A program made the translations under genes and the position numbers. The notes below the pieces were generated by a model. The model was not told the DNA's origin, did no database searches, and was given only the letters and a program-made list of their open reading frames with translations. From Haliotis cracherodii (taxonomy: Eukaryota), in the NCBI RefSeq assembly GCF_022045235.1, contig NW_027266269.1, forward strand, positions 7,626,001 through 7,690,000: DNA of 64,000 bases. The letters run 5' to 3'. Shown piece after piece: positions 3,096 to 60,554 of this stretch (its first letter is position 1; each line of letters starts with the position of its first letter).

Positions 3096-3318
3096 GAGTG
3101 TACTATAAGGACATACTCGATAACAACAGAACAGGAATGAACATCGCATTGACATTTTGTCACGCTTTATGCACCAGTCTATTGGGATATTTGAGCTGCA
3201 TTCGTTTGCTGAAGATGAAGTCAACGTTATGAGCAATTGCATTTAGCTCCAGATATTCAAAATGTCACCACAAGAAGGCATTTGGGATCGACGTGCAGCA
3301 TAAATCATACTGTGACAT

Positions 3319-5099: not shown

Positions 5100-5326
5100 A
5101 TGTTTGCTTGTTGTTTAACGCCACACTCAGCAAAAGCGGTTTGTATATTTGACGGCTGTCTGTAAATAATCGAGTCGGGAACAGACACTGCAATGATTGA
5201 CATCAACCACGTCAGCGACCCTGACCACCAAATCCCGTTAGTCGCTTCTTACGGCAAGGGTAGTCTCCTACTAGGGCAAGGATGGGCTGCTGAAGACCTA
5301 TTCTCTAGCCGGATTTTCACGGGTCC
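5100..5326 (-). mobile_element. SINE family A
   Basis: Reverse-complement similarity to the family. Confidence 0.75.
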
Positions 5327-6725
5327 CTAAATATAAGAATGAGTCAGATTCATTTGTCGAGTGGTTTCTTAGAAGATCTTTACAGCCTTCAGCCAGGAGT
5401 GCATTTTGAGGAAATTTAGACTGTGTTTATTGGCATGGATTTCTTATAATTATGGAAAGGGCTTTTATTTACGTCAATCCTCGCACTGAGATTGGCTTGT
5501 GACACGAACCCATGGTCAAAAATACAAAGGTCAAATCAAGGTAAAATGTAACATATATAAATAAACTGCAGTTACAGACCACTAATTTTAGTTTCTTATA
5601 ACCGTAGTTATTAGCATGTATACATCATATATACAGTAAATAGCCGTGACCAAAAATTAAAAACACGTTATAAGCGTGTTTGTTACAAAAGTAGTTTACT
5701 GTATATGTGTGGCGCCACTAAACAAACCTCACACATATACCAAATGTCATTACATTTTGAACAAACATGACTGAGTCAGTATGACCGAAGTGCAAAAAAA
5801 ATAAATAGCCTGAAAATATATCAGTCAGGTGAGCTAACAATGGTTTGCAAAAGGGACACGGTTCATAACGAGCTTGTGGATAAGAATCTACAATTCATGT
5901 CATTCGAACGTGTTAACATAATTTTGAAATTGAAAGAAAACATCAGTATTATTGGGATCAGTAACTGGTTTGTTGTCAAGTCTGAAACAGACTGTCCAGT
6001 GATTGATATTATGAACAACGATCAATACCATCATACTGCAGTCAACCAAGTCACTGAGCCTGACACCCCGACCCATTAGGTCGTCAATTCTAACCCGAAA
6101 TCACCATGGTAATACCGCTTTTAAGCATCTGAACACACATGAAATATCTCTACAAATTGTCATCAGTAATACCACAGTCTCTTTGCTATCCCTGAAGGGT
6201 TACTGGCTTACAAATGATTCATTAATCAACAGGACGAATGGATAAAGTAGAAATTGTAGTGACCTCTGCTGAAATGGATCAACATAGTTTGATTAATTAT
6301 GTAAGGAGTACCCATACTAGATTTGTGCAAAACGAGTCCATCAGATTCAATTTTGCAATTATGCCAACATTATTCTTCCATGTTTGCAAAGTTCAGATGA
6401 CATGTGGAAAGGACAGGAAGACAAAAGTACAGGGAAAAGGTGCTAAAACGTCAAAGCCCCGGGTAAATATCAAAATATGCTCAAGACGAACTATATGTTA
6501 TTCAGATTTCTGTATTTCAATTTTCATTACAATAAAGGCGAAAAAGGCTGTGGCGGCCCATATTGAAATTCGGATGTGATTGTAAAATGTTGACGTATGT
6601 GAAGTTTCAGCTTTGGCTTAGTTGGTTCAGAGGATAAGAAGTTTATGATGGACAAGCATTCCGCGACATAAGCTGACTTGATTTTCAGAAAAAAAAGGCT
6701 AAATTAATGTTTTCCCCATATGTAT

Positions 6726-9700
6726 CTAAATAGCATTTTTCGATTTTGGATATTTGATCTGCACTCGTTTGATGAGGCTGAAATCAACATCAAGGGTGAT
6801 GGCCTCGTGAAGAGGGATCCTTACTGGAGCATCCAACAGACTCTTGTCATCAACAGACATCTGAAAGAGACACGAACCAGTTCACTTTACAAATCAGGCC
6901 ACACATTCCCATCATGTTTGTTGTAATTTTGATTCACACAAACATTAATAGAACAAATATATACATCAACCAGACACATCGTTCATTGATTTCTCAGCGT
7001 AAAAAATACTCAATATATATATCAGCCCTTTCAGAGATGTTTAATGTCAATATATCAAGATTGACAACTGAGATTGACTGTTGCAGAAGCAGATATATTA
7101 TGGAGTAACATAGTCGTTATGTCTCACAAGATTCAGAGGGTTCGAAGTGTCCTCCGTCATGATATAATTGGATATTCACTCACTAACTCAGAAAAAGATC
7201 AAGTCTGCGAGATCGTATAATAGATTACATTTGTATATGTGTATGCACATAAACCCTCAAATTCCTACCTGGAACTCATTATTTGTGATTTTAATGGAGA
7301 GGTTCGACGTCACGTTGGGTGTGAACAGGAAGTCGGGAGAACTAATCTCTTTTTCCCATTGGCTTAATATCCGAGCAGTATTGTAGATTATTTCAGAGAT
7401 CGACCACCGCACAACCAGAAGGAACACCACTCTACTGCTCTCGTTTGCACTCAGACGTACCACAGACCTGAGGAAGAAAAAATATTAGTAATCAGATATT
7501 ATTGACATCATAAGCCTCACTGTAGCATGACCTTCTGATATTGAAGAAGAACTGTCTATTGCTTGTGTCAGACTTAAATAAAGCATTTGTTGGTAATTGA
7601 ACCAGGTGGCCTTCCCATAATACTGTCTTGTCTGACCTGTGGGTACCTCGGTTGCCAGTCGTTAGAGGTTTTTCCAGTTCCTGTTTTTTAGTGACTCTCT
7701 GTCATCGTGCCACAACGGGTTGGATCATTGTGTATACAGACTGCTATGATATGCTCTGATATCGAGAACATTTAGCAGTGTTCACTCAAGCCATATTCAG
7801 TATTTCCAATCCCATCAAGAAGAAATTGCATAAATATTGTAGCATGCTTTTGCAAATGCTGATTACTGTACACTTCACAGTACCTTGCGGCTCCATCACC
7901 AGCTGCCTCCACGATAATCTCCGTACCACTGGACAAGGGAGCAGGAAGAGGCGTACTGAATACGGGCACCTGTTGTAAAGTAGAGAGTGAGCAGGTGAAT
8001 AGATGATAATAACTCGTCGGGGTGGGATTGGGGAGGTTGAATTGTCGTTCTTAATACACGCACCTGTTATAAAGTAGAGAGTAAGCAGGTGAATAGTTGA
8101 TAATAACTTGTCGGGGTGGGGGTTGGGGAGGTTGAATTTGCGCTCTTAATATACTCACCTGTTATAAAGTAGAGAGTGAGGAGGTGAATTTTGCATCACT
8201 AAAAGTGAGCAGGAAGAGGCGCTCTTAATATACGCACCTGTTATAAAGTAGAGAGTGAGGAGGTGAATTTTGCATTACTAAAAGAGGGCAGGAAGAGGCG
8301 TTCTGAATACGGTCAATAAGGTCGGATTTAACTGGATAGAAAAAAATCAACCTTTTGTCTTACGTATTTTACTATAAATTAACATTAAAAACATGAAGTG
8401 ATGTATGTATGGATGGATGTACACACAACTGTTTGGTTTCCAAACATGTGCCACTGTACCTGGTCAACCCAGAGGGTCTGCATGCACCTTCCTACATTAA
8501 CTGGTACGTTGTCATGGAAACATGTGTCTGATGTGGTCGGTAGGTAGGAGAATCCACTGGGACAGGTGACATCAACGTGGGACTGGTTCCTCACCAGCAT
8601 CGATACTGCGTTCAGGACCCGAAACTCAGTGCAGGGAACTAAACATGACATATAAATCAATTATTTCCGAAGCTTCAATGCAGCTTGCGGTACTTAAACA
8701 GTTAACAGTTCTTATGACAAAATGAGTAGCTTTTGGCGATTCCATAGCGAATAGATAACCAGTAGGTGACACGAAAGATCATGAGGGCGTTACATCATAT
8801 GACGTTAATTCAATTTTGGAATAGGACACATATATTATGCTGAATACTTTCATAACAGAAAGCCTAAGGCCTTTAGTTACCCCGATGTAACAGTGATGTG
8901 CACCTACACAGTTTAGTTAATAATTGCTGGGACATTCAAGGCGTGGGTTACACAGGCCTCTATGGTTTACAGTAAATGATGTTTGAGTGAGATAAAGTAT
9001 TTTATAGTATAAATGACCTTGATCGACGTATTTGAAAATAAAAACATACTCCAACGTTTCATTTGACATTTTCACATGCTTCTCCAATTCGTAATGGTTC
9101 ATTTATCATACCGAATGGGATGAACTGACAATTAATGCCTTTGGTATTGCAAACAGGATATGCGTGTGACTATTATTTCATTCAATGTTTATGAGTTGGT
9201 TCTGATTTCAATGGTTCGTTTCACGCACACAGTTAGCTCATTGGCAATTAAAATGCTTGTTGTTGAGTCAACGTATATAGCCTTGTTTTGATCTGTGATG
9301 TTACTGATATATTCGCATTTTAGAGCCCAACCCAAACCATTAGAGTGATGAATTGAGAAATCTTCAGTCAATAAGTATCGATCTCCAACTGAAAACGTCC
9401 ACACACAAACAGACTCTATGGGGCGCAAAAGCCAAGGCATTTATAGATTGGTGATGACACCAGGTGTTCGCAAAACGTTTAACCATAGCATGGTCAACCC
9501 GTTGTACCCGCGCTCGCACAATTTGCACAACAAAGTAAGGGTTTATTTGTTGGTTAACTCTTATGTTAAATATCATTTATTATCGTGTTAAGAAACTTTT
9601 TTCTCCTGTACCGTCGTGGGTGTTTTTTTTTCAGAAATAAATGATGATGATGTTTGTTGTTCGATGCCGCACCCAGAATAATGCTTGATTAACACACACA

Positions 9701-10711
9701 TACAAGGAAGTAAATAGGCCTTTATGGCTGACCCTGTGTTACTTTCAGTGCTAAACGTACACACAAAATCATAGAAAGTAATTATCAAAGGATGTGAAAT
9801 GCATCTTAAATGTAAAAGTAAAATACTATATTTCAAATTAAATTCATATGTTGACACATGAACAGATTTACTTATCCAGATTGCTCTGACTTATATGCCA
9901 ATAAAGTTTGACTGAATCTTATCAACCAAATTGATGTTCCTGTGTGTGTTGTGAGGCCTGTAAATGGATTACAAAGAAATAAGTTTATGGTGACAAACAT
10001 GTTGTGAGGTCAGGAATGTCCTATTTGATATTCATAGTGCGATCCTTGGATCCTATTGCAAGAGGCTTTTTGAAAGAACTTTTAGCTGTAGCTGACAAAC
10101 AAAAGTCCAGACTCAATACAAAGTTTTGAGCCCCCAGCCCCCACAGACAAACCACCAACCACCCCAATCTCACCCCCCGAACCCACCCTGGAATATCAAA
10201 TGTCAGTTCCGAAATAAAAACTGGGGCAATAAATTCTATAAATTCAATACTGAAAAGAACATAACACGTATTATGATATAATATGCTTTATGATAATTAA
10301 GTTGCATGTAAATGTAAAATGTAATGTAACATTTCAGAAAGACAATAACCATTAGAATGTCAGTAAATGATATAACCGTGTTATAACGAAAGAACATTTA
10401 CCTGCATAATACTGCCAGCCTGCCTCTTGTTCACCCCCAGTGATGGAACATGAATAGTACAACCGACATCCTTGAGAGGTTGGATTGTACAGCACCATGT
10501 TGCACTGCAACTCATGGAAACACATCGACAGGCATGTAGCCTTGTCAGTAACACTGTGTTCAGTGATGAAGGTGTCATTAAACATCTGTCCATCCAAACT
10601 GACATGATGGAGAAATGTCAGATTGCCACATGACTGAAAAGCTGAACTGTAGGTAAAGGTAACGGTAACGGTAACAACAAGCTGAACAAATTCCCACACA
10701 GCCATTCTCAT
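6726..10711 (-). CDS. Secreted PAN/apple + Cys module + galectin-like domain protein (~302 aa, 5 exons)
   Basis: Exons 10711-10402, 8638-8460, 7969-7884, 7467-7269, 6860-6726. All introns GT-AG with matching phases (1,0,2,0); 909 nt open frame. Hydrophobic N-terminus MRMAVWEFVQLVVTVTVTFTYSSA. PAN Cys pattern CLSMCFHELQCNMVLYNPTSQGCRLY. C-terminal VPVFSTPLPAPLSSGTEIIV...VVRWSISEIIYNT...QWEKE...FLFTPN...IKITNNEFQMSVDDK...VRIPL follows the galectin beta-sandwich pattern (recognised by eye). Confidence 0.8.
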
Positions 10712-19600: not shown

Positions 19601-22135
19601 TGGACAATGTAACATGTTCACGGGGTGAACATATGGGCAATGTAAAATCTTCACAGGGTGAACATTGGGTCAATGTAACATCGTCACAGGGTGAACTTAT
19701 GGACAATGTAACATCTTTACATGGTGAACATATGGACAATATAACATCTTTACAGGGTGAACATATGGACAATGTAACATCTTTACAGGGTGAACATATG
19801 GACAATGTAACATCTTTACAGGGTGAACATATGGACAATGTAACATCTTTACAGGGTGAACTTATGGACAATGTAACATCTTTACAGGGTGAACATATGG
19901 ACAATGTAACATCTTTACAGGGTGATCATATGGGCAATGTAACATTTTTACTGGGTGAACATTTTACGGAGTGGACATAGAGGTGATGTAGTATTGTGAA
20001 CATATTCTCAATGTTTACAGAGTGAATGTAATATGTAAATATAGTGACAATGTAACATTTTTTCAATTTGAACGTTTCAGAAATCGAACATCTTTACAGG
20101 ATGAATATAGTGACAATGTCACATCTTTCGAAAGTGAACGTTTGTGATATCGAACATCTTTACAGAGTGAATATAGTGATAATGTGTCCTGTTTGCAGTA
20201 CAGTGCAGGGTAGTCCACAAGAAGGGGAGTCGGCGTCTTGAAGGCAGGTCTCCGGGGCAGTACAATACCCCGGTTGTATCCAACACAGAGTACAGCTGTA
20301 CAAGACGAAGGCTTCCCAACGTGTCCCGCTGCATCACGGGGAAGGGAGGAGGCATGGAAGAGGGGGATGAAAACACCGACAGCAGCGCAAAGAAAACTCC
20401 AGAGAAAGAAGCAACGGCCAAACCAACAGGTGTACATCAACAGAACAGCTTTTATTAATATGCATGTGCATGACTGGTGTGTAGTGATCCGAAATCGTAA
20501 CTATCGTGAAAGATCTAATACTATGATNNNNNNNNNNNNNNNNNNNNNNNNNNNNNNNNNNNNNNNNNNNNNNNNNNNNNNNNNNNNNNNNNNNNNNNNN
20601 NNNNNNNNNNNNNNNNNNNNNNNNNNNNNNNNNNNNNNNNNNNNNNNNNNNNNNNAGAGCCAGGATATTTTTCCAGTCACCAGATTCGGAATATCAAAGA
20701 TGCTTTACTTACCTCACTCGTGAAAGGTGACCTATTAAAATTCTAAATCAAAGAGGAAAAAAACACTGGGTTGTTTTGTACTGTAGTCATTTTGGCATGT
20801 AGTGATTTTCGAAGGATACCAATAAACTTGTTACATATTGTCAACAGTTTCACAGTATCATGATTTTGGAAATTTAATTCGTAATACACATCAATATGTG
20901 AAAACCAATTCTGCCCCTGGTATCAATATCAATACTTTTGATTTTTCTAGGTTACATGGAGCTACAAGCTGGGAAGGACAAGATCCATGTAAAGCAGTAC
21001 AACATATGTAAGACTTGGGACCAAGCATCGCAGCAGTGTAGGACGGACGGGGGGCATCTCATAAAGACAGATACAAATGACAAGCTAAAGGCCATCTACT
21101 CTTTGCGTAAGTTACCAAGACTACAACAAATGAGCCTATGCTTTTCCGACCGACCACTTNNNNNNNNNNNNNNNNNNNNNNNNNNNNNNNNNNNNNNNNN
21201 NNNNNNNNNNNNNNNNNNNNNNNNNNNNNNNNNNNNNNNNNNNNNNNNNNNNNNNNNNNNNNNNNNNNNNNNNNNNNNNNNNNNNNNNNNNNNNNNNNNN
21301 NNNNNNNNNGAAAAGGAGTTTTTACCCGCACAGATGTCACCCTTACCATGTGAGCTTGCCTTCCCTTCCACTGATTTACCCACCCGCCAGAAACCAAGGA
21401 GAGCAGTGAAGCTGCCTCATCTGTCTCATATTTACATCTATGTGTAAAGATTCAGAGTGACATAAAAGTCAACAAGGGACGGCGTTATTTTTCCCTGTGT
21501 GTTTGATCAGGGTTACTGCATTCAAAGGTTTTTGTAAAGTGTTCGAAACGTTTGAGGGTGGACATGTTAGGTACCTTTAATAATTTCTGTCAGCAACCAA
21601 AATGATGTCCGATGCATTTCCCTGTTTTAACTTGTACGACATGTCCCCATTATGGATATGGGGAAATGTGTGGATCATGTGATATATATCAGTTCTATAT
21701 CAGATATACGTGACCCACACTGGAATAGGGAGACAGCAGCAGATGTGATATATACCCTCGATATATCAGATATACAATACCCACATTGGATAGGGGGAAA
21801 AGAGTAGATAATGTAATATATACCCTCTCTATATTCGTTATGCATGACCCACAATGTATAGGGAGACGGGAGCAGATGTGATTTATACCCTCTCTGTATC
21901 AGAAATACATGGCCAACACTGGATAGGATTAAAGGATCGTCATGATGATGACAATTACATCTGGATTGACGGACTACCTCTGAACTTCGAAAAATGGGCT
22001 GTGGGTCAACCAAGCCACAAGAGTAAGGACGGACTGCAGGAGAACTGTGTTGAAGTTGGTCACAAAGGCTTTTTTGGGTTGTTCTGGAATGACAGATCAT
22101 GTGATGGATTACTACCATTCTTATGTCAGAAATAA
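14959..22135 (+). CDS. Secreted C-type lectin (perlucin-like CTLD) with putative N-terminal degenerate PAN and Cys modules (~307 aa)
   Basis: CTLD exons 20951-21106 and 21903-22135 are firm: TWDQASQQCRTDGGHL, HWIGL, WIDG, WAVGQPS, ENCV, WNDRSC, FLCQK; phase-1 join. Putative upstream exons 14959-15183 (SP + GIRLCREGC...VCHLNTE), 16684-16762 and 20199-20429 join in frame with phases 0,1,1. These are less certain: the donor at 20430 is weak and an N-gap lies at 20528-20655. Confidence 0.7.
15483..15695 (+). mobile_element. SINE family A
   Basis: Similarity to the family. Confidence 0.75.
15720..16250 (-). mobile_element. Possible Crypton (DUF3504-type) remnant
   Basis: Minus-strand fragments WNRGERENIL and DNEYAGLSL...LEQKG resemble the Crypton/KCTD1-like motif; heavily decayed. 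Confidence 0.35.
16573..16627. repeat. (TA)n microsatellite
   Basis: Visible. Confidence 0.95.
17080..18060 (-). mobile_element. Degenerate Tc1/mariner element
   Basis: VGDRACSGRPHVKT resembles the Tc1 GRPR/HTH motif; downstream sequence resembles decayed transposase. Boundaries approximate. Confidence 0.55.
18435..19205 (-). mobile_element. Internally deleted Tc1/mariner transposon with terminal inverted repeats
   Basis: TIRs TACTAGTCAAAGTTTGCT (18435) and AGCAAACTTTGAGTAGTA (ends 19205). Transposase remnant PLTRLHRQARLVW...VLCTDESRC...VWRR...EHDRYGRGSI. Confidence 0.8.
19255..20190 (+). repeat. 33-bp minisatellite (GGTGAACATATGGACAATGTAACATCTTTACAG), ~20 good copies plus degenerate flanks
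   Basis: Directly visible tandem array. Confidence 0.95.
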
Positions 22136-23212: not shown

Positions 23213-25760
23213 TTGACACAATGGAACTTTTTTTTTTCTAAGACTGCAAAACGTCAAGCAGCAATCCTAAAAGATCCTAAAATCATAAACCTGTCTTGTC
23301 ATCCCCTCAGTGTAAATGAAGTCAGTTTACTGAAAAAAGGTTTAATGTTTACACCTACACCTACGCCCAATCAGGAGGCTATCAAAACAGACTTAAAGAA
23401 CTTTTACTCGAAAAGTGAGACTGGCTAAATATTTTCAATCTGAAGAGGACAACGACGTTAAATGGGATGATGACGCAGGCAATAGGAAATATGGTGAAAG
23501 TCTGGTGAAAAATGAATCCAGTTTTATACCTTCACGCAGGAGAGAAAAATATGTGGAAGACTTTTGTGATAGACTTGAAAGTGCTCCTCTTCATGTAAAA
23601 CAAACAAAACAAAACCTATCTGAATGTGAATTAAAGGCCTTACTATTCTTAAAAATAACACAGACATCGTTATTAAAGAAGCCGATAAAGGGGGTGCTAT
23701 TGTTATTATGAATAAATCATTTTATCAAAGAAAGATAATGTCCATTTTAATTGATGATCAATATTATAGCAATCCTAGTAAAAGAGAAGAAAAATCTGTC
23801 CAGAATAAGGTTAAGAAATTGTTAGATAAGTATGATGACGAAATTCTAGACAAAGAAAAGGACTATCTAACCAATTTTGAACCTAAAACCGCTAATTTTT
23901 ATGGCCTACCCAAAGTACATAAAAGTAAACGTATTCAAAAGGAAATTAATGATAAAAATTGTGAAGTTATTTCTATTGAAAATCCGATGATTAACCATTT
24001 AGACCAATTGTGGGAGGACCCGAGAGCTGTACTCAGCGTCTTAGCAATTTCATAGATATTAATCTTAGGCCTTTATGTAAACATGTAAACAGTTTTCTCA
24101 GAGATGACATTGATTTTTTATGTAATTTACCTACTGAGGTACCGGAAGGATCTATGTTAGTTAGTTTTGATGTTGTTAGTTTGTATGGTAATATTGAAAC
24201 TGAGCTCGGACTGGACGCTATCAGATACTGGCTGAAAGAATACCGCCATGAAATATCAGATAGATTTTCGGATGAGTTTATCATTGATGCATTGAAGTTG
24301 GTTATTACCAATAACATGTTTTATTTTTAATGGATCTTATTATTCACAAAAGAAAGGAGTAGCCATGGGTACTAAGGTAGCCCCTACTTATGCAACCCTT
24401 GTTTTGGAATTTTTAGAGAATATGTTTTATGATAAGGTGAGAGATACTCTTGGTGAATCTATGAAAGAACAAATTGAATATTCATGGAAAAGGTTTTTAG
24501 ACGACTGTTTTATCATATTAAAAACCAGTGAAAGTCAACTTACAGCTGTTCATGAAATTTTAAATTCACTTAATGCGTCACTCAATTTCACTATGGGAAA
24601 AAGCGAATCCAGTTTAACCTTTCTCGATGTAAGAATCAATTTAATATCTGGGAGATTTGTACAAACTGATATCTTTTATAAAGATACTGATACGCACCAA
24701 TATTTGGATTTCGGATGATGTCACCCGTATCATACAAAACGAAATATCCCTTACTGTCTCGCAAGACGTATTTGTACCATTGTTTCCGGGAATGATGTTA
24801 AAACTACCCGCCTTGCTGAACTTAAGAGTTTCCTACTGCATCAAAATTATCCCGCAAAGCTAATTGAAGATAGCATACAGAAGGTGCTAAGTATTAAGCA
24901 ACTAAAACTGAGAGAAAAGTCTGAAGAAAACAATATGGGGAATAATTAAACTCTAGTATCTACCTTCAACCCTAATCATGAAAAAACATTATCCATGGTT
25001 CAAAGATACCTGCCTATTTTGAATCAAAGTATTAAAATGGAGAAGATATTGAGCAAATACAAAATTATCAACAGCCAAAGACAACCAAAAAATCTTAGAA
25101 ATTTTTTGACAAGTTCTAAATTTGATTCTGTTGTCATCACTCCACAGGTTTCTAAGTGCGGTGACAAACGTTGCCTTACTTGCAGCAATATAATTGAAGG
25201 CTGTTCAGTCCAAATTACAAAGGACACTAAATTTACTGTAAAACAAAATATGACTTGTGATACTAGAAATGTTATTTACTTGATTGTTTGCAGTGGATGC
25301 AATGAAAAGTATATCGGAAAGACAGGACTTAAATTAAAAAGAAGAATGAATCTTCACCGTTCACAAATAAAGAAGCCACACAACCGCACGATTCCACTCA
25401 GCGAACATTTAGAAGCATGTGGAAACGGCAACTTTTTAGTTTTCCCGCTATATAAGCTAAATTTTTATCATGAACCTACATTGTTTCAAAAAGAGCAACA
25501 TTTCATTCATAAATACGCGCCTAAGTTAAATGTAAAGGCGTAAGTTATTTGTCCAATGTCACCTTGGTATTGTGACGTCATAGTTTCCTAAATGTTATGA
25601 CGTCACGTAACTATATGTTACTACTTCATGTCCGTTATTCAGTTATGGCCTGATGAGACTCGTACGTGGTACGAGTTGAAAGCGCTAGCCTATTAAAACT
25701 GTGTTCAATCTTACTTATTTAATTATAACTACATTGTGCCTGAGAGTTAGAACTTTGCTG
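23213..25760 (+). mobile_element. Penelope-like retroelement (RT + GIY-YIG endonuclease), frameshifted/decayed
   Basis: Consecutive ORF fragments with IINLS, LLKKGLMFTPTP, FYGLPKVHK, SFDVVSLY, MGTKVAPTYA, WKRFLDDCF, TDIFYKDTDTHQYL and the GIY-YIG motif NVIYLIVCSGCNEKYIGKT. Several stops and frameshifts. The 3' region carries a hammerhead. Confidence 0.93.
25643..25697 (+). ncRNA. Type I hammerhead ribozyme in the Penelope 3' terminal region
   Basis: GGC-CTGATGA-G ACTCGTAC gtg GTACGAGT T-GAAA-GCGC-TA-GCC: intact core, perfect 8-bp stem II, short palindromic stem III, stem I GGC/GCC. Confidence 0.8.
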
Positions 25761-26165: not shown

Positions 26166-29100
26166 TCAGCTAGTTCTGTCTAAAAGACTGTGATCTTTGG
26201 TTCCGTCTAAACGTCAGTGATGTTCTGTTACGTCTAAACGTCAGTGATGTTTTGTTCTGTCTATATATTTATCTTCAGATACCAGCTGGATATTTGATAA
26301 TCTTGTAATTGATTTGGTCGGTGCATTAGCTTACTCCATGTGAAAGTAGTTTATTATTCGGATATGGTTGAGGAAGCTGTTTATTGATCTATTTATACAG
26401 GGAAAGATGCATTATTTATTGTGTATCCAAATGTGAGGTCACGTATTATCATTTCATAAACACAAACATAACAAAAAGTCCCCAGTGAGTATCCGGGTTA
26501 TTGGTCCTCAGCAACCCATGCTTGTCCTGAGAGGCGTCTAACGGGATTTGATGCATGTCATCGTTTCCCAATTGCATAGATCAATGATCATGATGTCAGT
26601 CACTGGATTGTTTTGTTCAGACGATTTTATTTACACATCACCGTCATATAGTTGGAATATTGGTGAATGCCGGGTTAAACAATAATAACAACAACAACAA
26701 AAATGATTTAAAATCCACCTTTTTAAGGGTATATTATTACACTAGTAAAGTGAATAATATGATAGTTCCTTCCTTTGAATCAGTTCATTTGCCAGGTGCT
26801 GTGAAAAAAGCCTTTTTTTTAGAATGCATCATTAACAAATATTACAGCATATATACTTAGCAAAGTATGACATAAAGGGAATCTGTGTTTGGGCTCTCCC
26901 AACCCTAATATTGTAACTTGAACAATTTTGCCATGTTTTGGTATTTGGTGCCTAAATGTCAGTTGGTTGTTATATCAATCAGGAATTACAACTGGCGTTG
27001 ACAAAATCAGGCATCGACAAAATATGTTGTGTTGATTACCGATTTGTGAATTGTATACATATGTTTTGTTTTGTTTGTTTGTTGTTTGACGCTGCACTCA
27101 GCAATATTCCAGCTATATGACGGCGGTCTGTAAATAATCGAGTCTGGACCAGACAATCCAGTGATTGATATCATGAGCATCGATCCACGCAATTGGGATA
27201 CGATGACATGTACCAAACAAACAAGTGAGCCTGGCCACCGGGTCCCAAGCAAAGTCGCTTTTTACGGCAGGCATGGGTTGTTGAAGATCCCTTCTACCCC
27301 GGATCTTCACGGGTAGGGGTCATGATATATTTTTATATACCGCACACATCTAAAGAAACTGAGTGTTCAATAATATCCCAAAAATATTCATGATACAAAC
27401 ATTTTTGTGTTCAGTATAAAAGCACACGTGATTACACAGTTATGTATATGATGGAAGTAACTGCAAAGAATTAGACGATCTGTTCACACTTATCAAGTAT
27501 TTTATGACATACCTATTGCCAAAGCGGAGTAGTCACATTTGCAGGATTCACAGCCCTTAGAATCTCTGAGATACCCCAGTGGACAGTGAAGTTGACATTC
27601 AAATGCTGGACACCCTGTAACAGTGAGCGAATACTGGCCACCCCACAAACAGTAAACATATAATGGACATCCTGTAAAAAGTGACCGAATACTGGACACT
27701 CTGTGAATAGTGAACGAATACCGGACGCTCTGTTAACATTAAGCCATGATAGATAACTGACGAATCATTCAGAAGATAATTTGAAGTCGCTTCTAGAAAA
27801 CAAAACTATATGTATCTTATTTCACGTTCATATAGATTTCTTTTCTTGAGGAAAAAGTGGGGCGTTACACCAACGAGCACTTGGAGATTGCCATTCTTCA
27901 TTCATTGGGCACAGGAGGCGAACCCGGGTCTTCGGCTTGACGAGCGAACGCTTTAACCACTAGGCTACCCGACCGCCCAGATATCAAAAGACCATGTCTG
28001 AAGAAATTAAGGGGATAAAATCAGGACTTGTTGGCGTGGTGTCAGTATTCTGTGCGGTATACATGTTAAACTGTGGCGTGGTATCTCAGTGGACAATTAA
28101 TAGTCAGTGGACTATTAAACCAGCATAAGGCCTGACTTGTACAAGAAGCCCCCTAACACACACATTCAATAATCTTGAAATCGACGTTAAATTCCATGTT
28201 ACCTCAACTCATCTCACATGCAAGAATCAATGATTTGAAATGTATCTAAGTCATGTCAGGCTGAGAGTATCTGTAACAAGGTAGTTCAACATTTAAGTGT
28301 CACGTGGTTAAGGTGAGGTGAGGGGAAGTGGGGTTTAATGTCGCGTCAAAGAGTATTGCACTTATATTGCGACGTGCAAGCACGTGTGTGAATGCGTGTG
28401 GTTGCTTGTACTAGTTCGGACTGATGCTGAGTTTATTGTTCTCGCCCACTGAGATACCATGCCAATATTTAACATGAAAACACTGCTCAGACACAGTATT
28501 CTGACACGATTTTTTAACGACTTTTGTTATGATGCGGCCGGGGATTGAACTTCCGCTCTCCGGGGGAAGCTCTACCACTGGACCATGGAGGCTGTGGCAT
28601 GGTTAAGAGGAACTACAGACTTATATATTGGAGAATTAAGAATAAAGCAAAAAAACCCTTTCCACAATCATAAGAAATCTAAAGTCCAACTGTATCAATC
28701 TGTATAAGCAATGGCTACCTGCTGGCTGGGTGTACGTGGTCCTCATGCACTCAGCACCACAACCATTGGACTTGCAGGCATAACCAGAGGGACAGGATCT
28801 GTTCACATAATCCCCACACAGGAGAAGACAACTCCCTCTTCGGGAATGGGGAATGCTGCAGACCACTAAATTCGAAAACATGGTGATAGCAGTATGAAGG
28901 CGTGAATCACATAAAATACTTATTCCTAAAAAATGTAAACATGTCTTTACTACCCTTTTCGCGAACACCTGATGTCATCACTGATTTTCAGTGGCCCTTT
29001 CACATAGTTTTCACAGCTATTTTGCCCTTCACGCCAAATGGAATCAGTTTCAATGAATAGTCAAAAATGATTTTTCTTACGCAATGACGTTGATATTAAT

Positions 29101-38503: not shown

Positions 38504-40920
38504 TCAAGAGGAAATAAGAGCAGCTCCGAATCCGGAATAAAGGCTTCCATAAATGTTCTGTGATCCTTTCCACTTTTCAAACCAAACTTCATCCCCTGTG
38601 TTGAGATACATGACTGTCGTTATGGAAACAACACCATATACCGTCTCTTTCGATGTTTCAGCATACCCTTTACCTTTGGTATGGCCATTCTGGACTAGGA
38701 ATATTTCCAGATATGATTCCACTTGATCCAGCATAATCTGAGCCCAGAATATGTAGGATCCAGACACTGGCGCTGTAAATATACCGGAGGAAGCTTCAAA
38801 TCCACCTCCATTGTTGTACATTAACGTATCAAAAATCAGCTTTCCGCCCATTTGTACAGAATGGACTTCCTTCTGCAGCCGGACTTCAAAGGCAATGTTT
38901 CTTGCACCTGATCCTGGACGATAAACAAACATAGCAGTATGAGCGAGTGATGGAGTGAAGCTTTAACTTTGCCTTGAACAGGTCTCAAGTAACGTCACAG
39001 TTTTACAGTTTAAGGATGAACAAGGAAGAACCCACTAGGTATGATGTTGGCAGTAACATGGGGACTAATCTAGGATTCGAACCAACGACCTATCCCAGTA
39101 GGATAAACGAACATTGCACTGTGTGTGCGTATTGGACCTAAGTTCTAACTCAGGAGCGAAGTTCATAATATTAATAACTGGTCTGTCTGGTCAATGCTCG
39201 AATGTTTACCCGCTGCTGTGATATAGTTGCAATGTTGCCTTCTGAGGTATTAAATATAAACAAAGCTAATTGGAAAACAATTTGATAAATATAAGTATAA
39301 ATATTGTCTTATGTGACATAAAAATTGTCATTTGTTCTGTGATGCAAAAACGATCAGTCACTGTAAGGCCACTGTCTTTGTCAAATGTAATTGTCAATTT
39401 GAATGTGGGTTACAGCGTTTACTCATCACGGCCGTTCGACTCGTGGTGGTCGTCGCTTGTGATATGTGTGAAAGTTTGCTGCAAGTGAAATACATACTGA
39501 CTCCATATGTTCAACATAGTCGTAAAAAGAGTTTGGTTGGTTGAGTGGTTGGCTGGTTGTCTTATGCCCCACTCAGCAATATTCCAGCTATATAACGACG
39601 GTCTCTAAATAATCGAGTCTATAGCAGACAATCCAGTTATTGATATCATGAGCATCGATCCATGCAATTGGGATCGATGACATGCTTGAACCAAGTCAGC
39701 GAGCCCGACCACGCGATTTTGTTAGTCGCCCCTTACGACAATCACCATCGCCTTTTAAGGCAAGCATGGGTTGCTGGAGGCCTGTTCTAACCCGGATCTT
39801 CACGGGTCAGTAAAAAGATAATAACGCCGAGTGGTTGTATTACGTATAACCTGTAAGGGTTTCAGCGACATACATACGTACTTGTCAAGTTTGATACGCT
39901 GTGCATGAAGGACGTCAGTGTTTGGTTAAGGTCATTGATAGCATATCGTGATGACGAAAACCCAATCTCCATGGCCTCAACTGCCTCTTCCATGTTTCCC
40001 AAAGCACCTGAAGTGGAGTTGAACTTCAGGTTGAAGTCCTTAAGCATTGTTTTGCAGTTTCTTTCTCCCAGCAGAAGAGAAGTCTTGATCCCTGTTACTT
40101 CTGAAGATATATTTGCTTTAAAATCTGTCACATTTGATGCCAATTTTAAAAGATCTGAATTTGTTAACAACACGTCATTAGAAGCCTTGTGGAGTTTCGA
40201 TTCAAAGATATTAAGTTCATCCTTGGTTGACTTCACATCGGCAGATATTGCATCCAGTAGGGTGGTGTTGACGTGGGACAACAGGGGATCAACATTGAAA
40301 CTCTTTACATTAGCCATGTCAGTTTGAAGGTTATGCAAGTCTGTCTTCATATTGTCGATATGTGTGGTTTGTTGTGAACTCAAATATTTGGTTACGGCTA
40401 GATCGCCTTCTACATTCTTGAGATCAGTATGGAGAAGGTTGAACTCAGTCTCCAGCCTCACCTGACTGTCGTGGCTAGCCCCAAGTTGAGACTTCAGAGC
40501 CTCACAGTCGTTGGTTGTTTTATTAAGTTCCACTTGCAGGTCCTTCACGTGTGTTTGTACAGTATTTAGATAGCCTTCGGTTGTATTCAGCTTTACCTTC
40601 ACAGCAGTAAGTTCATCCAGGGTACATCTCTGTTCTGCCAAAGATGCATTCTGTTCTGCCAGCATGTCTTGGATCTGAATTGTCATGTTATGAATTGTGT
40701 CCTCCGCTATCCTGAGTTCTGATTTAACTGCTCTTAACTCATCTGAGGTGGACTTCTGGTCAGCTTGGGTTAACTGCAGCTGAGACTGGACAGTTGACAA
40801 CATGTCTTGCAGCACTGTCACGTGACTCATCACGTCACTGATGTCAGCACTAGTAGTTGCAAAGGGAATAATTTGGACATCGCAGAAAAGACAAAAGAAG
40901 CAAACTTTGAAAACGTCCAT
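38504..40920 (-). CDS. Secreted coiled-coil C1q-domain-containing protein (C1qDC, ~482 aa, 2 exons)
   Basis: Exon 1 40920-39882 (SP + long heptad-rich region); exon 2 38913-38504 with gC1q motifs IAF, LIFDTLMYNNGGGFEASSGIFTAPVSGSYIF, YLNTGDEVW, YSGFGAALI. Phase-1 GT-AG intron. Confidence 0.9.
39545..39807 (-). mobile_element. SINE family A (in C1qDC intron)
   Basis: Reverse-complement similarity to the family. Confidence 0.8.
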
Positions 40921-41584
40921 GATTGCTTTGGTCCTTGCCTTAACTTATGATCCAAGGGTCTCCAGATAGGACTGACGCAAGTATAAACTAGAAATTTGAA
41001 ATAGAAGTCAGATAACGTTATCTTTGACCTATTCTATACGTTGCTGTAAACAACTGGTGGCTAACCAAAAAAATGTAAAAACGTGTTGCAATTAACAACC
41101 TCAACATCAACGTGTAAGAGTAATTCATATAAGTAACACAAGCTGTTAGTGCCATGTTGATCGTATGATTTTATTAATGAATATTTTAATGTGATCATCA
41201 TCAGAAATTTTCCTTCTCCTTTACAAAACTTGTATTTTATCTTGAAAGCAGCTGTGGAAGATGCAGGTGTCGTGTAAGGGAGGCTACTCTTACATTAAAA
41301 CATGCACCTCAAGATGGTAATCAGTGCGACTGTCAATATCCTGGTTCAGTGTGTGTATGTATATGAGTAAGTCGTGTCTCTTTGTCTCTTTAAAATACCT
41401 ACGTCGCCCATGACCGCCACGACCACGACCACTTCAATTTTGGGTTCTCACATAAATAACACATTTCCAATCTGCACGATAACATTTCACAAGGGAGATA
41501 GATTGAAACTGAGGAGACGTTTAATTTGCCTCCTTTGGATAGTTACAGTGTCCAATATAATAGATTTTGAAGTACCCTTATAGC

Positions 41585-49693: not shown

Positions 49694-52600
49694 TTAAGGT
49701 ATCAGAACTATCACCTGTCTAGTTGGACTAGCAAGATTAGCTTCTCCTATACGGTACAATTTTGACTCATGCCATAGGTAAATGCATTTGTGTCCCAGAG
49801 AACTTATAAACAAGTCACCTTTGTTCCTTACAATGTTCTTGACCTGAAAATGTAATCTTGTTAGTTTTCTTCTCCTTCTGTTTTTGAACAACCATGATTC
49901 CATGAGATTGGCTTTGTCTTTGTAATAAATGGCTTCTCCATTATCACTCAGAGCTAGACCATGTACTTCATTTGATGATGTTATCTTCAGCAAACCCTGC
50001 CCATCATATCCACACGAGTAGATGTTTCTGCTGGCAGCGACATACACTAGTTCTCGCCTTGTATCAAGGCAAACAGCCCAAAGTTTCGTGCAACATCTGA
50101 TCGTCTTGAAAAATCTCCCATCAGGTGCCATCCTATATAAGCAGGAATGTGGCCACCTCGAACTCAGGAATACCAGCTGCTGAGCATTGTCCACTGCTAT
50201 TGACAGGGCACGGATGTGCGACCTTACAGTAACACTGCCATTAGAATGCAATGAGAATGACCTGATCTTCATTGGCCTTGAAGTAGCCATCAAAAGCTTT
50301 TGGAGTGTTGGCACATATGCCAAGGCAGTGACATATCGTTGATTTATATTATAATATGTTGTGATGGAGCCGTTCGGAAGTTGGAGCGCACGTAATGGCG
50401 TCTTCGATCCCTTCATATAGGGTGCAACCAAGAGATGTGTCTTCTCCTCTGTTCTCCCTGTAAGAATATAATTGTGTTTTATAAATGAATTGACCGTTAA
50501 TATAAATTTCGGTTGGTCCGGTTTTGAATCTTAGAAACAAGTGTGCAATCTTTAAGCACCTGCACATCAGATTCTAATTGGTATTGGTCAACATGACTAT
50601 AAGGAATCAAACCATTCATCATAAGCAAGTAGTTTTTAGTTCCAGCAAAATCAGTACACCACCACCAAGTCATCGGATTTTCTGGTCCATCACTTCATTG
50701 TCGGAAGGCAACAAACGAACATTTTCATGCTAATTGTGTGACTGGCTCACCAGGTGTTTTTTTGTTCAGTTTTCTAACGCCGCATTCAGCAATATTCCAG
50801 CTACATGACAGCAGTCTCTAAATATTCAAGTCTGTACAAGTGAATCCACTGGCTGATTTCATGTGAAGCGACGCGCGTAATAGGGATACGGTGTCAAGCA
50901 TCAACCAAGGTCTGACAACCTGCTCCCGGTAAAAAAATGAAAATGACACATGCTGGGGAAAAAAGAGTTGATAACAGGGAAAGTCTGGCAATGCTTCGTT
51001 TGTTTAATCCCCTAGGACACATTAGTCAGTGTCGATGATATTTTAGAAGAGGATGACCCTTTCTTATTAAATGTGGTTCAGGGTTTCTTTTAAGTTCTTT
51101 TCGGAATAGCAAGAGTTATGTGCGTTTAGTTTGAACTTAAGATCTAAAAAACAATGTATTTCTTATGAAGAAAACGTGACTACAACTCTACATACACACA
51201 ATACACTGGTAACATGTTGCTAACATTCCTGGTAATAAATAATGTGGCACTTTATATGCATTTTGAGTTCTATCATTTCCACATAAACATATATATTACA
51301 TCATTTCCGAGTTCATCGAGAGGGTATGATTTAATGAGTGAGAGAAGAGCTTCGTAATATAGCCAACATAAAGGCAATGTAATTGAGCAAGGTTTTTCAG
51401 AATGCCTCGAGTGTTCCCATTAATACCCGTGTTAATATGTCTATCCAAATGTCCGTCTATTATTAACCATATCATGTCATTATGTTTGAAAACTATCCAA
51501 GTTTATATTGCAAAGGGAAGTCAACAGCTGATTATTATTTCAAATTATTCATCATGTTGCAGTTAGATTTGCTTCAAATAAGTAAAAGAACAAATATTGA
51601 ACACTTACGTTTTATGCATCGAAAGCCTTTTGATCTGGTAAGGACAATCCTAGAATGTCTCTCTGTGCAAAGCTCCTTTCTTTGTGAATAGGATCCGAGT
51701 GTTTTCTAAGACAGACACATCGATTTTACAAATGTATTTATACAAATTACTTAGAATTTTGTAACGGAATCACAAACAAATCATAACCATAATTGTTCGC
51801 CAAATGGTATTTTAATTGTCTTACTGACAAGAGAAAGTGTGTCCTCCAAAGTAGGGGGCATGGGTGGCCCAGACGTGTAAGGCGCCGCGATTCGCTGTGC
51901 AGAGTTGCGTCCCTTGGACGCCAGAAACCTCTGGTTGTGGGTTCGAATCCAAGTTCGCCCCAATTATGTTTCTAGGTTTGTCAGCACCATACCCGTACTC
52001 GTGGGTTTCACCGAAGCGGTAAACGTCTGAGACCTGCATCACTTCGGGCTTTCCTCCCACATTAAGGTGACACGCCATTATATAACTGGAATACTGTTAA
52101 AAGCGGCGTTAAACACAACTCTTTCACTCCTCCAAAGTAACCTCAATTCAGCTTTCATAATCATTATTACACTTCAAGGCGGTGGTGATCAATCGCTGGT
52201 GCTGATATCAGTACTGTCCGAAGGATGCTGAGAATCTTCACGCTGAACCCCTTTTCTGTTTAGATTGAATAGATAAAAGTGGGATGCAAATCTTCCAATG
52301 TGTAATGCCAAAACTCAAGTGATAACTCCAAGTAACAGAGGAGAAACTAATTTGATTCATGTTGAGGATTAGTCAAAGTCATATGTTTTTTCCGACGATT
52401 TAAACATTATTATTTTCAAGCAGACGAAAAAGAAAATAAACTGAAAAAAAAGCAACTGTGAGTAATAGCTGCCATTGCAAGGATATAAATACAAACTCTC
52501 AACTTGTTAAACCTAAGTTTATTTTCGCATGATTAACATACGACAAAGAGGGCTAAATCTGTCCTTAGAACCTCAGTAAAACCTGGTACCTTGCTGATAT

Positions 52601-57337: not shown

Positions 57338-60300
57338 TGAGTGAGTGAGTTTAAATTTAAGTGACATTGGCAATATTGCAGCCATATCGTGACTATCAAG
57401 TGTTAAACATGCTACATATTTTGAAACTTATATAAAAACCTGCCAACAGAGGACAGTAAAATAACTAGACTTATCACAGAAAAAGATATAAAACTAGTAT
57501 GTGATTTAAAAAAAGAAGTATAACACTATACATAACATGATAAAAACGGGCAAGAGATCGCCATCCTCTGAAGGTAGATCACCATACTGGGGGCCATAGG
57601 GGCTTACAGTACCTTTGCTACCTGCACGGACCCTAACAGGATTTACACCATCCCTTCAGTGGCTGGCGATTGTACGCAATTTAGCCATCAGTTAAAAGAA
57701 ACGAATATACTAAGTTTAAAAAAGTGGTTCGAATATACGTACTTTCAGGTTGTGGTCTTACGTATCCTCTCAGGGGGAGAATAATTTTACACTACTTCAA
57801 CTCCCTTGAGGATCTCTAACCATCAAAGTTACAGAATAAACACTACCAATATGATAAACAATAACTATCTACACAATTCAAAATTTATCAATACGTTTAA
57901 TTAAATGACAACTAATACTATTAAAAAGATCCTTAAGAGATGATGATTTGAAATATTTATCCCTTGTGATGGCAAAATCAATACAGTCAAGCAGGACATG
58001 CTTGACCGTTATTGTCTCATCACAAGGGATACAAAATGGAGGATCCTCACCTTTCAGTAAATATTCGTGTATATATCTGCTATGGCCAATGCGAGCGATG
58101 TCGCATAATGACCTCTTCAAATCTGGACTGACAGCAAAGTAGGTGTAACCTACCTGGGTGTCCCTTTTCTTTTGCATCAGACCTCGAATGTAACATCTGA
58201 TGAGAGGTTTGATATCGGTGTATGGGATACGAAGTGGTGTCACAGATTTGCTGAGTGCTGCTTTAGCAGCAGCATCGGCCATTGTATTCCCAGTGATTCC
58301 AACATGGCTGGGTAACCAACAGAAGACGATGTCGCTTGGCCAGTAGCAAGATCATTCAACAATTCAACAATTTCTATTATAAGTGAATGCGTGGATAACA
58401 TGTTTTTAATAGCCTGGAGGCAAGAAAGAGCATCTGAAAAAATTATGAACTGTTTATGTTTAGATTGTCTATTGATGTATTTAAGTGCTGTTAAAATAAC
58501 ATTTGCTTCTGCTGTAAAAATTGAACCGTTATCTGTTATCAGGATGAGATAATCCTGGATCCAATGACGGTGGCGCTGGCAAAAGCCTCAGGCCTTGATG
58601 GTAAATAGGATCTATAATGTTTAAATTGCTTTTACAAGCTCCACCATAAATGATGGAGCCATAATCGAGTTTCGAGAGGAGAGGTGATCTGTATAGTTGA
58701 AGAGGGTTTTCTGATCTTTTCCCCAATTAGAGTTTGAGACAACCAAATGGTGATAAAAAATTATACCCAGGAACTTACCTTCTTTTACAACCTTAATAGG
58801 CGTGTTATCTAAAATTAGTATCGGATCTTTGTGCGGTTTATATTTTCTACAAAAATGAATACAATTTATTTTAGATTTTGAGATTTTAAATCCTTTTTCC
58901 GAAGGCCATTTTTGGATTTTAATTAAACATAGTTGCGGTTGCTTTTCAATTGTATTCATGTTTTTGCCACGACAGGAAATATTGAAATCATCCACAAAAA
59001 GTGATCCATCAATTGAATCATTTAAAACTTTCGATAAGCTATTGATTTTAATGCTAAATAAAGTGACAGACAAAATACTGCCTTGTGGGACACCCTGATC
59101 CTGATTATAATGATCAGACAGGGTTGAACCCACACGGACTTGAAATTGCCTGTCGGTTAAAAACTCGGCTATGAATTGAAGCAAACGGCCTCGCAATCCA
59201 AAGTCATGTAAATCTTTTAAAATACCATGTTTCCATGTAGTGTCATATGCTTTTTCGAGATCGAAAAATATAGACACTGCATGTTGTTTATTTTTCATTG
59301 CATTTTTAACAAATGATTCTAAGCGAACCAAATGATCGATCGTACTTCTGTTTTTCCTGAAACCACATTGTATATTAGTAATGAGATTATTGGTTTCTAA
59401 GTACCAAACTAGTCGATTATTTATCATGCGTTCCATGGTTTTGCAAACGCATCTTGTCAATGATATTGGTCGGTAATTTGATGGATTAGTATGATCTCGA
59501 TCGGGTTTGGGTATCGGGACAAATATAGCCTCACGCCAGGAAGGAGGAAACTTCCTTGAGGTCCAAATTACATAAAAAATATTCAATAGTGTTTCTAAAA
59601 AGGATTCCGGTAAGTGCTTCAAGCGTTGATAATGTATGTTATCAGCTCCTGTAGCAGTATCGTGAGCTTGTCCAAGGGCAGTGTGGAGTTCATATATAGA
59701 GAATAGTTCATTGTAATCCTCTCCGTTTTCTCAATGAAAATCAAAAGGTTTCTTTTCTTGCTGTTTTTGATACTGAGGCGAAATGGTCCCCCTTGCAATT
59801 GGCACATTTTATGGCAGCTGTGCACTCAGTGCTCTCATGTGATCCACTGCAGCGGGCACAGATTATACTGAGAGTGCAGGTCTTTGCACCATGACCAAAT
59901 TGTTGACATTTGTAACATCGGAGTGGGTTAGGTACATAAACCTCAACTCCGATGTTAAAATATCCAGCTTTGATAGATGTTGCTATTTTAGATAGGGAAA
60001 AAGTAAACAGATAAGTGTGAGTCTTGATAATTTGGTCATCTTGTTTTCGTGTGAATCGCTTGACAGCTGTAACACCTCGTTTTGTCAGTTCAGTCACAAT
60101 CTCATCCTCGTTCATGTCAGACAGACATCGGGCTCTGTCTCTTACAGTGCCCCGACACGAGTTCAGCGTTCTGAGTGCCGAGACAGGAACCTCTACATTT
60201 GCAAATTGGCTGATTGATAGCAGGTTCAGAGATTGTTGTCTTCTTGCACACTCTACAAGTATGGAGCCATTACGCAGTCGGGAGACATTTTCTACTTTGC

Positions 60301-60475
60301 CACAACAACCATTGATGGCTTTGGAAATAGCAAACGGATTAAATTTTAAGGGTTGGTGATCTGAAGCTTCGATTACAATAAATCGAATCCAGGAATATAA
60401 TTGTAGATCCGTTTCTTCCTCAGAAGAGCTGGCATCTAAGTGTTTTCTTTTTGAACCAGGGTATTTTGTTGACAT
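57338..60475 (-). mobile_element. I-group (Nimb/Ingi-like) LINE: zinc-knuckle ORF1, RT, RNase H; endonuclease region deleted; decayed
   Basis: ORF1 with CYKCQQFGHGAKTC, CARCSGSHESTEC, CANCKGDH. RT with NYRPISLT, FFDLEKAYD, GVPQGSILS, LFVDD. RNase H with IFSDALSCLQAI, FCWLPSHVGITGNTMADAAAK. C-terminal CIPCDETITVKHVLLDC. 3' UTR ends in (ACTC)n. Confidence 0.92.
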
Positions 60476-60554
60476 AAAGAGTAGACTTGGGCAACATTCT
60501 TGGGCAACCCGTCAACAGTCAAGGATTATAAAGCAGATTTTTGTTGAAAAGTCG

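What the first reader, a model, noticed from the sequence alone, without database searches (positions are those of the whole stretch)
6726..10711. Signal-peptide-bearing galectin-fold protein lacking the canonical galactose-binding residues
Seen: exons 3-5 follow the galectin strand pattern. The H-x-N-x-R motif reads LLVVR, while R, N, W and E (VRW..IIYNT..QWEKE) are only partly retained. Established: classical galectins lack signal peptides and bind beta-galactosides through H-N-R-N-W-E-R. Inference: a classically secreted PAN-galectin chimera with altered or no sugar specificity. The ORF track misses it because it is split over short exons.
Basis: partly seen in the sequence, partly recalled or inferred. 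Interest (0 to 1): 0.7.

Follow-up and report, generated by a model that had tools for sequence, protein, structure and literature searches.

The report
Abalone secreted variable-groove galectin-like family
This five-exon abalone gene encodes a likely secreted protein whose galectin-type end keeps only four of the seven galactose-binding residues, and it belongs to a multi-copy abalone family in which that groove changes fastest, so the family likely acts as a set of recognition proteins with different targets.

Summary
Five GT-AG exons on the minus strand give a 302-aa protein, identical from Met3 to RefSeq XP_071098072.1. Its exon-4 borders match canonical galectins of this genome. Signature: H, N and the last R are lost; R, N, W, E are kept. 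It is one of many Haliotis paralogs. Among 13 close members R, N and W are invariant, while the His, Asn and last-Arg positions take 6-7 residues each. Exon 4 diverges fastest, and its tree conflicts with the PAN-sushi tree. Best reading: a secreted recognition protein with a constant scaffold and a variable glycan groove (0.55). Binding, tissue and splicing of this copy are unshown. Secreted galectin mosaics are known in gastropods (GREP, abalone shell proteins), and this scan noted a CBM-sushi-galectin relative elsewhere in this genome. I found no paper on the PAN-sushi-galectin family.

The parts
10640..10711 (-). Predicted signal peptide, aa 1-24, with an S-x-A cleavage site inferred; the RefSeq model starts at the second Met (10705)
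   Evidence: Max 10-residue hydropathy in the N-terminal stretch 2.27; 1.59-3.83 in 21 of 21 family proteins against 0.15-0.83 in 4 of 4 canonical galectins; helix 2-22 in the model; no SignalP run
10402..10711 (-). Coding exon 1: signal peptide plus PAN/apple domain; phase-1 donor
   Evidence: (PAN_1 E 1.7e-6)
8460..8638 (-). Exon 2: 4-Cys sushi/CCP-like domain; its last strand joins the galectin sandwich; 96% nucleotide identity to each of two close paralogs
   Evidence: 4 Cys kept in 30 of 30; Sushi hit in 3 of 33 members; Atlas TM 0.52 to a sushi domain, under the naming bar
7884..7969 (-). Exon 3: first strands of the galectin-fold domain
7269..7467 (-). Exon 4: galectin groove exon (S3-S6 to F4). 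Codons: L206 7421-7419, V208 7415-7413, R210 7409-7407, N219 7382-7380, W227 7358-7356, E230 7349-7347, S232 7343-7341. Fastest-changing exon
6726..6860 (-). Exon 5: last galectin strands and stop codon
7950..8309 (-). Intron-2 tandem repeats (94-95 and 79 bp units) that copy the exon-3 acceptor and the start of exon 3; the copies are closed by stops
6203..6725 (-). Likely 3' untranslated region
   Evidence: Contigs of run X5 (RNA is a guess) lie at 6203-6373 and 6599-6776 with 0 differences

Best explanation
The gene encodes a likely secreted PAN-sushi-galectin protein that would work as a recognition molecule: a fairly constant PAN-sushi scaffold carries a galectin-derived groove predicted to stack a sugar ring on its kept Arg-Asn-Trp core, while the variable surrounding residues likely shift it away from plain beta-galactosides to a different target in each paralog. 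Shown: exon structure, domain order, fold, descent from a true galectin domain, which signature residues are lost, the multi-copy family, and the fast, discordant evolution of exon 4. Inferred: export through the ER; glycan binding with changed specificity; gene conversion keeping exons 1-2 alike within lineages while old groove types persist; a role in defence or surface recognition in haemolymph or mucus; possible disulfide-linked pairing through an odd ninth conserved cysteine.
For: Fold and ancestry. The exon-4 acceptor (phase 2) and donor (phase 0, 150-153 nt after the His-position codon) match canonical C45 galectin exons. A matching donor was found in 4 of 6 such exons and a matching acceptor in 4 of 6. 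Groove: R210, N219 and W227 are kept in 13 of 13 close members and E230 in 9 of 13; positions 206, 208 and 232 take 7, 6 and 6 residues, and S3 positions 192, 194 and 196 take 7, 8 and 6. Against the two nearest paralogs, exon 2 is 98% identical in protein and exon 4 is 43%, with dS 0.16 vs 0.57-0.70 (Fisher p 2e-4 to 4e-4). Trees of 9 proteins: exons 1-2 split by species group (100/100) and reject the groove-type clade (p-AU 4e-51); exons 4-5 group by type across species (95/95) and reject a H. rubra paralog clade (p-AU 3e-5). A second subfamily, 4 intact-looking genes, has 27 nonsynonymous to 9 synonymous variants in exon 4 against 29 to 27 elsewhere (p 0.03). In a relative's DNA run the exon-4 contig differs at 17 of 200 bases against 66 of 2005 in six intron or flank contigs. 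The 10 listed differences change 7 residues, including positions 206 and 232. Secretion: 9 conserved Cys, 6 sequons. Precedent: snail plasma GREP has an altered pocket and binds schistosome larval proteins (PMC5433772 passages). The window also holds C1q and C-type-lectin exons.
Against: No binding, tissue or secretion data. Chicken LGALSL2 also lost S4 residues, kept the Trp, and bound no glycan significantly on a broad array (PMC13696195 abstract and passages). Exon-4 pN/pS is 0.85-0.98 in the second subfamily and dN is below dS in the close one, so relaxed constraint is not excluded. Ten of ten nonsynonymous listed changes has a chance of about 0.06, and only 40 of 397 differences were shown. 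In distant members the core decays (R in 25 of 29, W in 19 of 29). The species split in exons 4-5 is only weakly rejected (p-AU 0.045; 0.076 for exon 4 alone), and the groups were chosen after seeing the identity table. The one spliced contig belongs to a paralog.
Confidence: 0.55

Rival explanations
1. The galectin domain has stopped being a lectin and binds proteins through a hydrophobic groove, as the galectin-like domain of Toxoplasma MIC1 does; any sugar binding would be done by the PAN domain.
For: His and Asn are replaced by Leu and Val in this copy. In TgMIC1 the sugar residues are replaced by hydrophobic ones that bind MIC6 (PMC8247436 passage). LGALSL2 keeps the Trp yet shows no significant glycan binding. 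PAN domains mediate protein or carbohydrate contacts (PMC13712769 passage).
Against: Most paralogs carry small or polar residues at positions 206 and 208, not a conserved hydrophobic patch, while Arg, Asn and Trp stay invariant in 13 of 13 close members. In LGALSL and LGALSL2 the S-face hardly shows conservation.
Confidence: 0.25
2. It is a secreted matrix or gamete-surface protein (shell, periostracum, egg coat or sperm) rather than a defence molecule; fast groove change would reflect matrix or reproductive partners.
For: H. laevigata shell proteomes list signal-peptide proteins with sushi plus galectin domains (PMC6003135 table passages). Concerted evolution is typical of abalone egg-coat repeats (recalled, not from a call).
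Against: Those shell proteins carry chitin-binding domains that are absent here, and 'PAN' and 'apple' occur 0 times in that paper's main text. The neighbours in the window are C1q and C-type-lectin genes, which is weak context only.
Confidence: 0.12
3. The groove is simply decaying under relaxed selection in a birth-and-death family, and its variability has no adaptive meaning.
For: pN/pS near 1 in exon 4; a pseudogene paralog with a stop in exon 4 and duplicated or frameshifted first exons; a decayed exon-5 copy in the window.
Against: Groove types are shared across H. rubra, H. asinina and the cracherodii/rufescens group. The frame, the fold and the R-N-W core are intact across about 40% exon-4 identity.
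Confidence: 0.08

Closest known systems
Canonical galectins (PF00337; galectin-4/8/9 N-terminal CRDs; the H-N-R-N-W-E galectin exons on contig C45 of this genome)
   Same: Fold (Z 22.0, rmsd 1.7), exon-4 intron positions and phases, R-N-W-E kept
   Different: Signal-peptide-like leader, disulfide-rich PAN and sushi-like domains, one CRD, and His, Asn and the last Arg lost. Vertebrate galectins lack signal peptides (PMC8497297 passage).
GREP of Biomphalaria glabrata (VIgL family: IgSF1-IgSF2-galectin)
   Same: Gastropod plasma protein with a C-terminal galectin domain and an altered pocket; binds parasite larval proteins (PMC5433772 passages)
   Different: Ig domains instead of PAN and sushi; reported as restricted to Heterobranchia (PMC8878817 passage); described with a few variants, whereas this family has many diverged paralogs
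Haliotis laevigata shell-matrix mosaics CLC_3878 and idb_982
   Same: Abalone proteins with signal peptide, sushi and galectin domains (PMC6003135 table passages)
   Different: Large, with chitin-binding and FA58C/fucolectin domains, and no PAN listed
Galectin-like proteins LGALSL/GRP, LGALSL2, GRIFIN, and the TgMIC1 galectin-like domain
   Same: Galectin fold with lost signature residues
   Different: The vertebrate ones are single domains conserved on the F-face; here the S-face core is invariant and its rim varies among paralogs

Membership tests
Galectin (bona fide) | Galectin beta-sandwich CRD with sequence similarity | tested here: met
   PF00337 at 45.8 bits; Z 22.0; Foldseek E 1.3e-10
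Galectin (bona fide) | Signature H-N-R-N-W-E-R (Gal-1 His44, Asn46, Arg48, Asn61, Trp68, Glu71, Arg73; PMC11934519 passage) | tested here: not met
   L-V-R-N-W-E-S, 4 of 7
Galectin (bona fide) | No signal peptide; cytosolic synthesis | tested here: not met
   Hydrophobic leader, PAN domain, 10 Cys and 6 sequons; by hydropathy only, no SignalP
Galectin (bona fide) | Binds beta-galactosides | not testable with these tools
   Needs a binding assay
Galectin superfamily by descent (galectin-like proteins) | Shared intron positions around the groove exon | tested here: met
   Phase-2 acceptor and phase-0 donor in F4, as in the C45 canonical exons
GREP / VIgL | N-terminal IgSF domains before the galectin domain | tested here: not met
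   The N-terminal region is PAN; no Ig family among the 8 families hit by 33 members
PAN/apple domain | PAN profile match with the 4-Cys core | tested here: met
   PAN_1 above cut-off; C58, C62, C68 and C80 kept in 29-30 of 30; 27 of 33 members match
Sushi/CCP domain | About 60 aa, 4 Cys, profile or fold match | tested here: inconclusive
   4 Cys in 30 of 30; no Pfam hit in this protein, 3 of 33 members hit; Atlas TM 0.47-0.52 to sushi domains, under the naming bar

The most novel reading that the evidence does not exclude
Abalones have built a diversified recognition repertoire on the galectin fold: many secreted genes share a PAN-sushi constant part homogenised by gene conversion, carry old and fast-changing groove exons as specificity cassettes, and pair through a spare conserved cysteine. 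This would be a vetigastropod counterpart of the FREP/GREP system of pulmonate snails.
Probability: 0.3. Interest if true: 0.75.

Novelty: new variant of a known kind. Interest (0 to 1): 0.5.

Why it matters
Galectins are textbook leaderless lectins with a fixed galactose site. This family shows the domain moved into the secretory pathway, multiplied, and re-tuned around an invariant Arg-Asn-Trp core. It offers a natural panel for testing which residues switch galectin specificity, and whether losing galactoside binding goes with gaining a signal peptide. If the paralogs bind different microbial glycans, they are candidate immune-recognition genes in farmed and threatened abalones, a group in which GREPs are reported absent (PMC8878817 passage). 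If they bind nothing, this is one more mosaic gene family of modest interest.

Tried and rejected
(1) A first fold on a 13-sequence alignment gave pLDDT 46.8 with the N-terminal half unresolved, though Foldseek still returned galectins; it was replaced by the 33-sequence model. PAN and sushi were not folded alone, so the fold searches barely tested them. (2) RNA search: no RNA holder listed. Runs X1, X2 and X4 cover introns, so they are DNA of a relative. Run X5 shows the joint 8638/10402 in one contig, but 4 of its 5 listed exon-1 differences match the paralog at C6:6131967, so I rejected it as proof for this copy. X6 and X7 lay only on intron repeats. (3) Homodimer prediction: no answer, score 0.00, alignment not used; no evidence either way. 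(4) The Atlas feature search on the middle domain gave no usable hit. (5) The 'others' total had a misregistered exon 1 and was redone. Genes g47 and g50 were dropped there as suspected pseudogenes; with them exon-4 pN/pS is 0.98. (6) The exon-2 tree with outgroups was unresolved. (7) Searches of earlier findings by sequence and by words found nothing. (8) Paper searches listed no paper whose title or abstract start describes a PAN-sushi-galectin family. One search returned 0 papers, PMC4509915 is not held, and subscription journals such as Dev Comp Immunol and Fish Shellfish Immunol are largely not searched. The supplements of PMC6003135 were not opened and could list such proteins.

Full report
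1. Observation. The gene lies on the minus strand. Exons 10711-10402 (310 nt), 8638-8460 (179), 7969-7884 (86), 7467-7269 (199) and 6860-6726 (135) have canonical GT/AG ends and join to an open frame of 302 aa. A search with exon 4 returned one longer protein, P0001, which equals this product from the second Met and is RefSeq XP_071098072.1, 'uncharacterized protein', Haliotis cracherodii. An independent annotation therefore uses the same splice sites. Numbering below follows P0001 (add 2 for the 302-aa form).

2. Anatomy. The N-terminus has a hydrophobic stretch ending in S-S-A. Its peak 10-residue hydropathy is 2.27, against 1.59-3.83 in 21 of 21 family proteins and 0.15-0.83 in 4 of 4 canonical galectins, with no later membrane-spanning stretch. 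SignalP was not available. Exon 1 holds a PAN domain. Exon 2 is a 60-aa module with four cysteines kept in 30 of 30 members. It is sushi-like but below naming thresholds in this protein; 14% of the nearest Atlas cluster carry Sushi. Exons 3-5 match Gal-bind_lectin at E 5.2e-12. With 33 sequences AlphaFold2 gave pLDDT 87.9. Residues 155-295 align to galectin-8N at Z 22.0, rmsd 1.7, above non-galectin beta-sandwiches at Z 13.6 or less; Foldseek agrees. Exon 4 begins in phase 2 and ends in phase 0 in strand F4, 153 nt after the His-position codon. Of six canonical galectin exons on contig C45, four showed a donor at 150-153 nt, one at 165 nt and one none, and four showed a same-phase acceptor. 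The domain therefore descends from a true galectin. Nine cysteines are conserved in 29-30 of 30 members. An odd number suggests, by inference only, one interchain bond; this copy has a tenth, unconserved Cys.

3. The groove. Galectin-1 binds through His44, Asn46, Arg48, Asn61, Trp68, Glu71 and Arg73 among others (PMC11934519, passage). Here these read L206, V208, R210, N219, W227, E230, S232. Among 13 close relatives R210, N219 and W227 are invariant and E230 is kept in 9; positions 206, 208 and 232 take 7, 6 and 6 different residues. Across 29 members including distant ones, R is kept in 25, N in 21 and W in 19 (plus 8 F/Y).

4. Family. The near-length search gave 13 proteins, all Haliotis, and the profile search 16, all Haliotis. 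Of 27 representative hits, 19 were looked up. The PAN-galectin ones are Haliotis, one Gigantopelta protein has EGF-sushi-galectin, three are fish multi-galectin proteins and four are unnamed. The Atlas has an 83-member mollusc cluster, 93% galectin and 77% PAN. In this genome the galectin profile matches 52 places, and PAN has 1077 candidates, 150 of 150 scored matching. Of 50 galectin-exon positions tested against 46 chosen PAN positions, 14 had a same-strand PAN exon within 40 kb upstream; three of these are over 35 kb away and uncertain. Close paralogs on C6 lie at 7.58-7.59, 6.11-6.13, 6.08 (stop in exon 4) and 28.86-28.88 Mb. Six further five-exon genes lie at 7.77-7.83 and 8.50-8.53 Mb, and more on C26 and C27 (20 stretches read).

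5. Evolution. Against its two nearest paralogs the gene is 98% identical in exon 2 and 43% in exon 4, and synonymous divergence is also higher in exon 4 (dS 0.57-0.70 vs 0.16 in exon 2 and 0.04-0.12 in exon 5; p 2e-4 to 4e-4). In trees of the nine full-length close proteins (P0010-P0013 left out as truncated or mis-modelled), exons 1-2 split cracherodii/rufescens from rubra/asinina (100/100) and reject the groove-type clade (p-AU 4e-51). Exons 4-5 group by type across species (95/95) and reject monophyly of the H. rubra paralogs (p-AU 3e-5), but reject the species split only weakly (0.045). The groups were named. The simplest reading is gene conversion of the 5' exons with older groove types retained. 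In the second subfamily exon 4 has 27 nonsynonymous to 9 synonymous variants, the other exons 29 to 27 (p 0.03, 4 genes); the site ratio of 0.85 does not prove positive selection. In DNA run X2 of a relative, the exon-4 contig differs at 17 of 200 bases against 66 of 2005 in six intron or flank contigs (a seventh, 7 of 197, was left out). The ten listed exon-4 differences change seven residues, including 206 and 232. Only 40 of 397 differences were displayed, and a close paralog as source is not excluded.

6. Expression. Not shown for this copy. In run X5 (RNA by guess) two contigs match exon 5 and the downstream region exactly and one matches exon 2 with one difference. The only spliced contig joins exon 1 to exon 2 at the same sites but comes from a paralog.

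7. How it likely works. The protein enters the ER, forms disulfides and is secreted (inferred). The PAN-sushi part serves as a constant stalk or partner-binding arm (inferred). The groove stacks a pyranose on Trp227 with Arg210, Asn219 and Glu230, but without the His and Asn that read galactose in canonical galectins (recalled) it would prefer other glycans, differing by paralog (inferred; 0.55). The rivals are a protein-binding groove as in TgMIC1 (PMC8247436, passage) or LGALSL2, which kept Trp yet bound no array glycan significantly (PMC13696195, abstract and passages) (0.25); a shell or gamete role (0.12); and relaxed decay (0.08).

8. Known relatives and novelty. It fails two galectin membership features (signature, no leader) but is galectin-like by descent. 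Secreted galectin mosaics exist: Biomphalaria GREP, with Ig domains and an altered pocket (PMC5433772, passages), and abalone shell proteins with signal peptide, sushi and galectin (PMC6003135, table passages). Ten paper searches showed no description of the PAN-sushi-galectin family. I saw listings for most papers and passages only for the eight fetched (also PMC8878817, PMC8497297, PMC13712769); no supplements were opened. Verdict: a real gene, a new variant of a known kind; interest 0.5, resting on the variable-groove pattern more than on the signal peptide.

Noticed in passing
window 3163-3300 (-): Decayed, frameshifted copy of exon 5 about 3.5 kb downstream on the same strand (tblastn E 0.05; local alignment score 89 against a maximum of 77.5 in 300 shuffles). 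No copies of exons 1-4 were found in the readable window.
   Followed up: partly
window 7950-8309: Tandem repeats that duplicate the exon-3 acceptor and exon start; possible decoy or alternative acceptors.
   Followed up: partly
L036:1878-2139 and 5205-5502; L041:3000-3297; L042:3670-3967: Two close paralogs each have two upstream signal-peptide/PAN exons for one sushi-galectin set (one copy frameshifted, one lacking Cys58). RefSeq P0003 reads as a mosaic of its two first exons. The second subfamily has extra PAN exons too. Alternative first exons are possible.
   Followed up: partly
window 38507-40944 (-): C1q-domain exon (E 1.4e-18) downstream of a long coiled-coil exon, likely one C1qDC gene.
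   Followed up: no
window 20902-21159 (+): Exon with a hydrophobic leader and a C-type lectin match (E 7.8e-4, under cut-off).
   Followed up: no
window 28639-28974 (-) and 49697-50530 (-): A small Cys-rich exon that looks WAP-like (label recalled; no Pfam hit) and a beta-propeller-like ORF with only a weak hit.
   Followed up: no
window 23630-25540 (+) and 57881-60511 (-): Retroelement remains: RT-like frames with a GIY-YIG domain (Penelope-like, label recalled) and a LINE-type RVT_1.
   Followed up: no
L012-L014, L017 (C12) and L019, L022, L028, L031, L034 (C18): Other clusters of degenerate galectin exons: H/L-S-R...N-Y-E-R with Tyr for Trp on C12, and H-S-R...N-W on C18.
   Followed up: no
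G000 whole genome: PAN domains are very numerous (1077 candidates). The Atlas also lists a mollusc PAN plus Methyltransf_FA cluster of 74 members, suggesting a PAN leader shuffled onto different end domains.
   Followed up: no
P0022, P0024 (fish records): Giant teleost proteins of 2500-3400 aa with 7-9 galectin-matching stretches, unnamed in RefSeq/GenBank.
   Followed up: no
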